Virus record (IMG/VR): IMGVR_UViG_3300046817_000863 | Location: 242-64,241 of that record | From: a virus | Lineage: Duplodnaviria > Caudoviricetes | Length of the DNA stretch: 64,000 nucleotides | Reading direction: 5' to 3' (one strand) | Part shown: positions 58,784 through 59,525 of the stretch, piece after piece | How positions within the stretch are numbered: position 1 is the first letter of the stretch | Layout: every line of letters starts with the position of its first letter | The notes under the pieces: model-generated | Told to the model about the DNA's origin: nothing | Databases searched by the model: none | The model's input: only the letters and a program-made list of their open reading frames with translations | Translations under genes and position numbers: made by a program

Positions 58784-59122
58784 AAACACGAAAGCCCCGA
58801 AGCGTTTTCTCTCGCCGCGGGGCCTTTACGTGTCTTTCTTTGACGGTGCTCAAACGCATGGTACCCGATACCTGCGCTTCGCGTAATGGGGGTTTACGGG
58901 TTTAACGGTAATCCAAAAACACTAAAGCCCGCAGTGACCTGAGGCGGGTCGCGGCGGGCTTTGAGTGAGGCACAATGCGAAGTTGAATCGAAGTTGCCAT
59001 CAAGAATAGCACAGAAACACGAAACCCCCATCGCAGTTCGGAGGTTCTGCAGGTGGGGGCTCGTGGTGCTAAATGGTCGGTTCAGCTTTTTCAGGATACC
59101 CGCAAACCCCCGATCGGTGCAA
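58782..59122 (-). ncRNA. Three tandem promoter-hairpin-terminator units (candidate sRNAs)
   Basis: Three related hairpins ending GGG(C/G)TTT(C/A)GTGTTT on minus, each with an upstream -10. Confidence 0.5.
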
Positions 59123-59525
59123 CATCAGAAATGTGGGTTCCGGTATTGACGGGTAAGGCCAGCATGGGTGACTATATCCGTAGCTTGCCGGAAGGTAAGC
59201 CGGTCGGTTTGACGTAGCAGTCCAGGTGCTTTCGAGCTTAATTCCCTGGGGATCAGTTCCCGCCAGCAGCGATGCTGACGCGCCGTTTGCGATAAAGGAA
59301 TTGGTTGAACGTGCGGAGAGATCGTTAGGCCCTAGTCCCAGAACGGGACTATACACCCAGTCACCGCGGACCTGTAAGGCGCTGCACGCCGAAGTTGAAC
59401 ACGCAAGTGTTCGAGCGAAGTGCAGGTGACGACGCGAGGCGCTGGCTCCGGGGGAAATGTTCTCGAGCAGTAATCGTTGAGACACACGGCAAACTCCAAG
59501 GGGGTTTGTTCTACGTGTGCCTCGG
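59120..59525 (+). ncRNA. Large structured non-coding RNA (candidate)
   Basis: Nested helices; GGAA, GCGA, GCAA and UUCG loops; plus-strand G-U pairs. Confidence 0.6.

What the first reader, a model, noticed from the sequence alone, without database searches (positions are those of the whole stretch)
59120..59525. Ornate ~400-nt structured RNA with no recognised class
Hand-folded on plus: outer GGCCAGC(59157)/GCUGGCU(59441). Domain 1 is closed by UGGGUG(59165)/CACCCA(59354) and holds GCUUGCC-GGAA-GGUAAGC, CCAGG/CCUGG with GCU-UUCG-AGC, GAUCAGUUCC/GGAAUUGGUU with CAGCA-GCGA-UGCUG, and UAGUCCC/GGGACUA. Domain 2 is GUCAC(59360)/GUGAC(59426) with CUGCAC/GUGCAG and GAACAC-GCAA-GUGUUC. A long 3' hairpin spans 59479-59523. 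Three GNRA loops, a UUCG loop and G-U pairs all favour the plus strand. It precedes a zinc-ribbon gene that could be its partner. Established: phages carry large ncRNAs (GOLLD, ROOL), but I cannot match this one by eye.
Basis: partly seen in the sequence, partly recalled or inferred. Interest (0 to 1): 0.72.

Follow-up and report, generated by a model that had tools for sequence, protein, structure and literature searches.

The report
Orphan structured non-coding gap in phage
An 826-base stretch without genes in a soil phage folds into many hairpins and may make a structured RNA, but it has no relatives anywhere we could look, so this remains an unproven candidate.

Summary
The interval is non-coding and matches no Rfam family. 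The plus strand folds better than the minus strand (z -2.65 against -1.12). It is the only one of 1314 genome windows whose fold carries three GNRA-capped hairpins. Three of the 11 helices, including the UUCG hairpin, have almost no thermodynamic support. No homologue was found in any collection, so covariation could not be tested. Metatranscriptome contigs show no special abundance.

The surroundings change the picture. The fold sits in an 826-nt gap (58784-59609) on the repressor side of a temperate phage's switch. To its left are three similar terminator-like hairpins that read best on the minus strand (z about -6). An operator-like palindrome lies on its 5' edge, and a hairpin that hides the ribosome-binding site lies on its 3' side. 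The zinc-ribbon gene belongs to a widespread phage family that is found elsewhere without this RNA. My best reading (about 0.4) is a structured plus-strand leader or ncRNA of a small inserted cassette.

The parts
58439..58783 (+). Small repressor-like gene, RHH-like on weak evidence only. It is the first gene of the plus-strand unit that diverges from the HTH gene at 58074-58343 (minus).
   Evidence: GC skew flips at about 58350. Two relatives of 57-58% identity fix the start at the ATG at 58439. No Pfam hit. The best PDB sequence match is a CopG-family RHH protein at E 0.27, which is not significant.
58356..58401 (.). Two operator-like sites (TTTAGGGGTAAGG at 58356, TTTACGGGTAAGT at 58389) in the switch region. 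Their core is the palindrome TTAC-GG-GTAA.
   Evidence: Pattern search found 3 plus-strand sites in this neighbourhood among 4 matches in the window. Repeats D5/D7. Sequence read. That they are operators is inference.
58783..58840 (.). Hairpin H1, directly after the repressor-like gene's stop codon. It has a GC stem with a U-rich run on both strands, so it looks like a bidirectional terminator.
   Evidence: Sequence, folds, and first copy of the 22-nt repeat D1.
58910..58967 (-). Hairpin H2. It reads as a terminator on the minus strand (GC stem followed by UUUAGUGUUUUU).
   Evidence: Inverted repeat I7 and repeat D1 copy 2. The weak Rfam rnk-leader hit aligns its terminator stem and U-run to this site on minus. 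Folds.
59008..59070 (-). Hairpin H3. It reads as a terminator on the minus strand (stem followed by UUUCGUGUUUCU). It is extended by flanking pairs into a long imperfect hairpin.
   Evidence: The terminator scan lists 59047-59022 on minus. Repeat D1 copy 3. Folds.
58888..59111 (.). Domain closed by a 14-nt long-range helix (GGGGGTTTACGGGT / ACCCGCAAACCCCC) that encloses H2 and H3.
   Evidence: Inverted repeat I11, 93% complementary. The helix is present in the MFE and in the centroid. For 58770-59160, z is -6.15 on plus and -6.05 on minus, with 0 of 100 shuffles as stable. These are the most negative composition-corrected windows of the genome.
59146..59158 (.). Third operator-like site (TTGACGGGTAAGG).
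   Evidence: (D5, D7). Both functions are inferred.
59157..59447 (+). It comprises the outer helix, domain 1 (GGAA hairpin 59183-59200, GCGA hairpin 59264-59277, pentaloop hairpin 59333-59351) and domain 2 (59360-59430, with the GCAA hairpin 59397-59412).
59479..59523 (+). Long 3' hairpin with no U-run after it on either strand. Its 3' arm is 71% complementary to the 22-nt repeat at 59009-59029.
   Evidence: Folds. Inverted repeat I4.
59577..59600 (+). A 10-bp hairpin (CUUUCUAUUG / UAGUAGGAGG, 4 G-U pairs, loop AAAC) that pairs the AGGAGG ribosome-binding site 10 nt before the TTG start.
   Evidence: MFE and centroid of 59440-59640. Sequence.
59610..59957 (+). Zinc-ribbon gene (115 aa from the TTG start; a public gene call starts it at GTG 59517, giving 146 aa).
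   Evidence: 323 relatives at E<=0.001. The conserved CxxC...CxxC core covers residues 3-65. 20 of 40 aligned members match Pfam PF23895, but this protein itself does not. The model shows a zinc ribbon plus a long helix, pLDDT 90.4.
59964..60242 (+). A 92-aa gene. In one Acidobacteriia MAG, its homologue directly follows the repressor-like gene.
   Evidence: tblastn gave 37% identity over 54 aa, E 5e-9. Confirmed at E 1.8e-6. ORF map.

Best explanation
The interval is part of a long non-coding plus-strand leader, or a stand-alone ncRNA, inside a small cassette (58784-59963: the gap plus the zinc-ribbon gene). The cassette sits between the phage's repressor-like gene and the 92-aa gene.

Inferred mechanism: transcription on the plus strand starts either at a repressor-controlled promoter over the operator-like site at 59146, or further upstream. 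It produces an RNA that folds into several stable GNRA-capped hairpins and a long bipartite hairpin (domain 2). This is followed by the 59479-59523 hairpin and by a hairpin that occludes the ribosome-binding site. The folded leader would set the stability and translation of the zinc-ribbon mRNA.

The three hairpins to the left act mainly as terminators. They end the repressor transcript on plus (H1) and stop minus-strand transcription from running into the repressor gene (H3, H2, H1).

Shown: the helices exist; the region is non-coding; the plus strand is preferred; three GNRA caps are unusual for this genome; the ribosome-binding site is paired in the predicted fold.

Inferred: that the RNA is made, where it starts and ends, and that the fold matters.
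For: - Non-coding in all six frames. An 826-nt gap is exceptional in this tightly packed phage.
- The GC skew of the gap has the same sign as the flanking plus-strand genes.
- Plus strand against minus strand: z -2.65 against -1.12 for 59157-59447, and -2.99 against -1.23 for 59005-59560.
- Three GNRA hairpins in the native MFE, against none with three among 400 shuffles. This is the only such window of 1314.
- 8 of 11 reader helices have pair probability of 0.75 or more.
- The ribosome-binding site is paired in a 10-bp hairpin.
- Operator-like sites shared with the switch region lie at the 5' edge.
- In G001:C84 the repressor-like gene is followed directly by the 92-aa homologue, with no gap and no zinc-ribbon gene. 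This marks 58784-59963 as an insertion.
Against: - No homologue was found, so there is no covariation test.
- Three helices, including the UUCG hairpin, are not supported thermodynamically.
- If the promoter guess at 59146-59175 is right, the transcript starts near 59182. The two closing helices (59157-59170) then cannot form.
- No intrinsic terminator follows the fold on plus, so a discrete ncRNA has no obvious 3' end.
- The three terminator-like hairpins at the left read best on minus. This points to a minus-strand transcript across the interval.
Confidence: 0.4

Rival explanations
1. No RNA-level function for the fold. The gap is regulatory and insulating DNA: a distal operator, weak promoters and a battery of terminators, plus spacer left over from the insertion of the zinc-ribbon cassette. 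The drawn structure is what any 300-nt G+C-rich stretch yields when folded by hand.
For: - Palindromic operator-like sites lie at 58356, 58389 and 59146, with a partial one at 58890.
- Terminator-like hairpins H1-H3.
- The core has ordinary composition-corrected stability.
- Two other clusters of special-tetraloop hairpins occur in coding parts of the genome.
- No relatives and no conservation (calls listed under the best explanation).
- The RNA-library contigs are short and of depth 2-4.
Against: - Three GNRA caps in one MFE is a 1-in-1314-windows event here and was never reached in 400 shuffles.
- The stability is clearly asymmetric between strands.
- About 450 nt of spacer with no function is unusual in a phage this compact.
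Confidence: 0.33
2. The main product is a minus-strand RNA of about 530 nt. It would start near 59540 (promoter guess TTAAGA-15-TATATT, 59571-59545) and end at the triple terminators H3, H2 and H1. It would act as an antisense regulator of the zinc-ribbon leader, or as an ncRNA in its own right. The plus-strand fold would then be secondary.
For: - H2 and H3 have U-rich tails only on minus, and all three copies keep the same tail (UUUCGUGUUUCU or UUUAGUGUUUUU).
- The minus promoter guess scores 9 of 12, the best in the gap.
- A second minus guess at 59198-59171 scores 8 of 12.
- An RNA-library contig covers 58999-59150, ending close to H3. This is weak: depth 3.4, and strand is not told.
Against: - The minus strand folds no better than shuffles apart from the terminators: z -1.12 and -1.23.
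- The GC skew of the gap matches plus-strand genes.
- All three GNRA loops become non-special loops on minus (one search lists none on minus here).
- The promoter guesses are weak, and the host's promoter rules are unknown.
Confidence: 0.22
3. The interval encodes a protein: the 184-aa minus-strand ORF 59069-59623, or a gene read with a different genetic code.
For: The ORF is open for 184 codons and stops 5 nt before hairpin H3. One gene caller predicted it on a 1937-nt contig.
Against: - The codon score is -0.110 per codon, inside the wrong-frame range (mean -0.287, maximum 0.025) and below every one of the 21 reference genes.
- G+C is flat across the three codon positions, at 0.53/0.56/0.51.
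- No Pfam match at E<=1.
- Only itself among 5.8 billion protein clusters.
- Every frame holds all three stop codons, so no single reassignment opens one.
Confidence: 0.03

Closest known systems
Long structured leaders of early operons in temperate phages next to the repressor gene, such as the N leader of phage lambda (comparison recalled from general knowledge, not from a call)
   Same: The position is similar: downstream of the repressor gene, on the same strand, beside an operator-like site. The leader is several hundred nt long with stable hairpins ahead of a small early gene, and translation control by RNA structure is plausible.
   Different: There is no sequence or family relationship and no identified antiterminator protein. 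The promoter and transcript ends are unknown. The leader would be roughly 430-590 nt, with three GNRA-capped hairpins.
   Same: It is a large non-coding stretch in a temperate phage with many hairpins. If the left domain is counted, about 750 nt are structured.
   Different: No Rfam family matched at gathering score or at E<=10, apart from noise. No family of homologues exists here, no covariation is available, and RNA libraries show no sign of high abundance.
Intrinsic (rho-independent) terminators, including bidirectional ones
   Same: H1, H2 and H3 each have a GC stem followed by a U-rich run. H3 is picked up by the terminator scan. H2 aligns to the terminator of an Rfam leader model.
   Different: Three similar copies lie in tandem with a conserved 22-nt arm and large loops. 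They are nested inside a 14-bp long-range helix, which is more elaborate than ordinary terminators.
Pfam PF23895 (Phage zinc binding domain), for the neighbouring gene
   Same: The CxxC...CxxC core is present, and 20 of 40 aligned relatives match the family. Relatives sit in early or replication modules of other phages.
   Different: The window's own protein gives no Pfam hit at E<=0.01. It has an added 40-residue C-terminal helix. No link to an RNA is seen in relatives.

Membership tests
Any Rfam 15 family (including GOLLD, ROOL, OLE, raiA, HEARO, riboswitches, ribozymes, group I/II introns, RNase P, tmRNA) | Match to the family covariance model at its gathering score | tested here: not met
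   0 matches over the whole window. At E<=10 there was only a 19.7-bit rnk-leader hit against a gathering score of 55 and a 13.5-bit snoRNA hit against 45. ARAGORN found 0 tRNA or tmRNA genes.
Conserved structured ncRNA (generic standard) | Homologues whose substitutions keep the helices (covariation) | not testable with these tools
   No homologue in phages, IMG/VR, metagenome contigs, genome contigs or 401 Acidobacteriota genomes. The tool that could fetch the contigs of the two repressor relatives was closed.
Conserved structured ncRNA (generic standard) | Thermodynamic stability beyond shuffles and beyond the rest of the genome | tested here: inconclusive
On the fixed grid z is only -1.39, and local windows give 0 to -1.2.
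Conserved structured ncRNA (generic standard) | A discrete transcript of the right strand and size | tested here: inconclusive
   Contigs from three RNA libraries cover 58432-58900, 58999-59150, 59387-59572 and 59565-59947 at depth 2-4. Contigs cannot tell the strand or the ends of an RNA, and DNA carry-over is not excluded.
Intrinsic terminator (H1, H2, H3) | G+C-rich stem-loop directly followed by a U-rich run on the transcribed strand | tested here: met
   H3 is listed by the scan on minus. H2's stem and U-run align to an Rfam leader's terminator on minus. H1 shows runs on both strands (sequence, folds). Loops are large, and no termination assay has been done.
Pfam PF23895 Phage_zn_bind (neighbouring protein) | Match to the Pfam model | tested here: inconclusive
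   The window protein has 0 families at E<=0.01. 20 of 40 aligned relatives match, best E 1.3e-05. Homology to those relatives is strong, down to E 3e-22.
Protein-coding gene (minus ORF 59069-59623) | Codon usage like the phage's genes, and/or homologues | tested here: not met

The most novel reading that the evidence does not exclude
The whole gap, from about 58783 to 59525 (roughly 750 nt), is one large multi-domain plus-strand RNA expressed from the prophage's repressor side. It would have a rod-like left domain (58888-59111), a GNRA-rich core (59157-59447) and a 3' hairpin. It would be the first member of a new class of large ornate phage RNAs of soil bacteria, acting in trans, for example in immunity or exclusion, rather than as a leader.
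Probability: 0.1. Interest if true: 0.75.

Novelty: new member of a known kind. Interest (0 to 1): 0.35.

Why it matters
If the fold is real, this is an unusually long and elaborate RNA element in the lysogeny-control region of a phage lineage with no cultured relatives. The closest large terminase in 50,697 phage records is 32% identical. It would add to the few known cases in which RNA structure, rather than protein, shapes expression next to a phage repressor.

Near-identical DNA turns up in soil and rhizosphere metagenomes of many studies (24 rows from 23 studies), so the phage is common enough to study. As it stands it is a single sequence. Its value is as a defined target for stranded read mapping and chemical probing, not as an established RNA class.

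Tried and rejected
- **Known RNA class:** rejected by Rfam at two thresholds and by ARAGORN.
- **Coding or recoded gene:** rejected.
- **Homologues through neighbouring or core proteins:** none found.
  - Zinc-ribbon gene, 1186-aa gene, large terminase, Erf-like gene and the repressor alignment in IMG/VR.
  - Repressor alignment in metagenome and genome contigs.
  - Terminase in genome contigs.
  - tblastn of the repressor against phage records.
  - Terminase in 301 genomes of one order: one 32% match only.
- **Homologues by DNA:**
  - blastn against phages gave nothing.
  - 401 Acidobacteriota genomes gave 11 short G+C-rich matches on both strands, judged chance.
  - Two exact 20-22-mers from the core gave 0 hits.
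- **A shared motif with locus L005 (AGCACA..AAACACGAA..CCCC):** it first looked like a conserved 5' end. Collection scans gave 11, 28 and 9 hits in unrelated contexts. The motif is best read as the reverse complement of a generic U-rich terminator tail. No hit carried the core.
- **L005's own 727-nt gap:** it folds best on the opposite strand (z -3.20 on minus, -1.47 on plus). Global alignment shows no homology. It was therefore not used as a homologue.
- **Zinc-ribbon protein as RNA partner:** nothing supports it. Its fold matches only generic zinc ribbons, with 0 PDB matches at E<=0.001.
- **RNA-library contigs:** parts of the interval without cover (59176-59343 in the three RNA runs) are not evidence of absence.
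- **Literature:** a search for the Pfam family name or accession found 0 papers. No paper was read.

Full report
**What the window is**

The window is almost all of one IMG/VR virus record (64,241 bases, estimated 92% complete). Family scans identify:
- a large terminase (26405-28384);
- tail-fibre proteins;
- an integrase (39360-40556);
- a primase-helicase, a replication initiator and an Erf-like annealing protein (54663-55514).

Nearly all of these are on the minus strand, so this is a temperate tailed phage.

GC skew changes sign at about 58350. To the left, an HTH gene (58074-58343, minus) heads the early operon. To the right a short plus-strand unit runs from a small repressor-like gene (58439-58783), through the 826-nt gap, to the zinc-ribbon gene (59610-59957) and a 92-aa gene (59964-60242). 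It ends at a bidirectional terminator-like repeat (60259-60308), facing a 1186-aa minus-strand gene.

The 'RHH' label for the repressor-like gene rests on weak evidence only. It has no Pfam hit, and its best PDB match is a CopG-family protein at E 0.27.

**Check of the observation**

- An unconstrained fold of 59157-59447 independently recovers 48 of the 67 pairs.
- Eight helices have pair probabilities of 0.75-1.00.
- Three helices have probability near zero: CCAGG/CCUGG, the UUCG hairpin and the 10-bp G-U-rich helix.

The 3' hairpin is robust.

The core folds better than shuffles on plus and not on minus:
- plus: z -2.65, with 1 of 200 shuffles as stable; my rerun gave -2.40, with 9 of 400;
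- minus: z -1.12, with 26 of 200;
- the wider stretch 59005-59560 behaves the same way, at -2.99 against -1.23.

The most telling single statistic is the loops. The native MFE has three GNRA-capped hairpins, and none of 400 shuffles had three. In a scan of 1314 windows over both strands of the genome, only this one has three.

Counter-evidence:
- on a fixed grid the composition-corrected z is -1.39;
- 160-nt windows across the core are unremarkable;
- simple hairpin counting finds two other tetraloop clusters in the genome.

I rate the observation as partly confirmed.

**What it is not**

- *Not a known RNA family.* Rfam 15 gives nothing at gathering score in the whole window. Only noise appears at E<=10 when the region is searched alone with lax filters. 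There is no tRNA or tmRNA.
- *Not coding.* All six frames hold all three stop codons. The 184-aa minus ORF that spans the interval scores like a wrong frame (-0.110 per codon, against a gene mean of 0.216 and minimum of 0.016) and has flat G+C across codon positions. It has no Pfam match and no relative.

**Surroundings**

1. *The region to the left is the most structured in the genome.*
   - The stretch 58783-59111 holds the most negative composition-corrected windows (z -4.6). The wider stretch 58770-59160 gives z -6.15 on plus and -6.05 on minus, with the MFE equal to the centroid on plus.
   - It consists of three hairpins (H1 58783-58840, H2 58910-58967, H3 59008-59070). Their 5' arms are copies of one 22-nt repeat, and a 14-bp long-range helix (58888-58901 with 59098-59111) encloses H2 and H3.
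   - On the minus strand each is a GC stem followed by a near-identical U-rich tail. H3 is called by the terminator scan, and H2 aligns to an Rfam leader's terminator. Only H1 also has a U-run on plus.
   - So H1 probably ends the repressor transcript. All three can stop minus-strand transcription before it enters the repressor gene.
2. *An operator-like palindrome recurs.* A site with core TTAC-GG-GTAA occurs twice in the switch region (58356, 58389). One copy lies inside a good minus-strand promoter-like arrangement that I read by eye from the sequence. A weak plus-strand promoter guess (TTGACG-18-GACTAT) overlaps the 59146 site. If that promoter is used, the transcript starts near 59182. 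It would then contain all three GNRA hairpins and domain 2, but not the two closing helices.
3. *The ribosome-binding site is paired.* The zinc-ribbon gene's AGGAGG site sits in a 10-bp, G-U-rich hairpin (59577-59600).
4. *The gap and zinc-ribbon gene look inserted.* In one Acidobacteriia MAG contig (G001:C84) the gene order is Erf-like (minus), HTH (minus), Omega-repressor-like (plus), then directly a homologue of the 92-aa gene. There is no gap and no zinc-ribbon gene. Relative to that distant layout, 58784-59963 of the window looks like an inserted cassette.

**The proposed partner**

The zinc-ribbon protein has only itself in the word-indexed search. A full HMMER scan finds 323 relatives at E<=0.001, with a conserved CxxC...CxxC core. 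Twenty of 40 aligned members match Pfam PF23895.

Five IMG/VR loci with relatives were fetched.
- In four, the gene is preceded by under 300 nt. In two of these, replication-initiator genes are adjacent.
- None has similarity to the gap.
- The fifth, L005, has a 727-nt gap. It is not alignable and folds best on the other strand.

The predicted structure is a zinc ribbon plus a long helix (pLDDT 90.4), with no PDB fold match at E<=0.001. Nothing links this family to the RNA.

**Search for homologues**

All routes failed, and the individual searches are listed under Tried and rejected. The phage has no close relative in the collections. The best terminase match among 50,697 phage records is 32% identical. 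Covariation, the decisive test, could therefore not be run.

Two repressor relatives of 57-58% identity exist, one of them on a 42,964-nt contig. The tool that fetches such contigs was closed, and pattern scans did not find them.

**Expression**

Near-identical DNA occurs in soil and rhizosphere metagenomes (24 rows from 23 studies), including six rows on record as RNA. I laid three RNA runs and one DNA run on the region. The RNA-library contigs are short, of depth 2-4, and scattered over the repressor gene, H3, the 3' third of the fold and the zinc-ribbon gene. Contigs tell neither strand nor ends, and DNA carry-over is possible. There is no sign of the high abundance expected of a stable ncRNA, but this is not evidence against one.

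**Reading**

I put about 0.40 on a functional plus-strand structured leader or ncRNA belonging to the inserted cassette. About 0.33 goes to regulatory DNA whose fold has no RNA-level function, about 0.22 to a minus-strand transcript as the main product, and about 0.03 to coding.

The case for plus rests on strand asymmetry, GNRA caps, skew and the hairpin over the ribosome-binding site. The case against rests on ordinary stability without the chosen ends, no conservation data and the minus-reading terminators.

The closest known analogues are long structured leaders of early operons beside phage repressor genes. That comparison is recalled from general knowledge, not tested. Membership in any named RNA family was tested and not met.

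**Verdict**

This is a real, non-coding, hairpin-rich region and a reasonable but unproven candidate for a structured RNA. It is a singleton with no class and no support for the proposed protein partner. Interest is moderate (0.35). It would rise sharply if stranded reads or related contigs confirmed a discrete folded RNA.

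Noticed in passing
window 58777-59111: Three tandem copies of a 22-nt repeat (58777, 58910, 59008) each form the 5' arm of a GC hairpin with the same U-rich tail on the minus strand. A 14-bp long-range helix encloses two of them. This is the most stable region of the genome (z about -6 on both strands).
   Followed up: partly
window 58356-58401, 58890-58901, 59146-59158: A repeated operator-like palindrome (core TTAC-GG-GTAA). Two copies lie in the divergent promoter region between the HTH and repressor-like genes, one at the edge of the fold, and one partial copy between H1 and H2.
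   Followed up: partly
window 59577-59600: A 10-bp hairpin with four G-U pairs sequesters the AGGAGG ribosome-binding site of the zinc-ribbon gene. It might act as a translational or temperature-sensitive switch.
   Followed up: no
window 59517-59957: The public gene call for the zinc-ribbon protein starts at GTG 59517 (146 aa) and overlaps the 3' hairpin. Relatives align from residue 3 of the 115-aa form, which starts at TTG 59610 behind AGGAGG, so the shorter form is more likely.
   Followed up: partly
L005 1885-2480 (IMG/VR record of 67,055 bases with direct terminal repeats): A separate 600-nt non-coding stretch upstream of another zinc-ribbon gene. It folds well on the strand opposite to that gene (z -3.20, 1 of 100 shuffles) and ends in a terminator-like hairpin. 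It has no Rfam match and may be an unrelated candidate ncRNA.
   Followed up: partly
L109, L114, L119, L121, L122, L127, L129, L130, L132, L133 (metagenome contigs): A family of about ten contigs shares a conserved unit of roughly 200 nt, bounded by GTGACTCGCAGC ... GCTGCGGGTCAC. It occurs twice in tandem in L109 (203 nt apart) and often sits at contig ends. It looks like a repeated element that breaks assemblies. It is unrelated to the finding.
   Followed up: no
L146 1300-4100 (G001:C84 21300-24100): An Acidobacteriia MAG contig carries a compact version of the same switch layout: Erf-like, HTH, Omega-repressor-like, then a 92-aa homologue. This hints at the host phylum and shows the gap plus zinc-ribbon gene as an insertion.
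   Followed up: partly
L146 97-839: Open frames on both strands run through a tandem array whose +2 frame (113-625) repeats the eight-residue unit PVDEAEPL some 15 times. The array lies at the start of the second half of contig G001:C84.
   Followed up: no
window 51135-52037: A 299-aa phage protein of unknown function (PHROG 2045, E 1.7e-69) has relatives of 42-55% identity in at least 80 genomes across many phyla. The best match is in an Acidobacteriia MAG.
   Followed up: no
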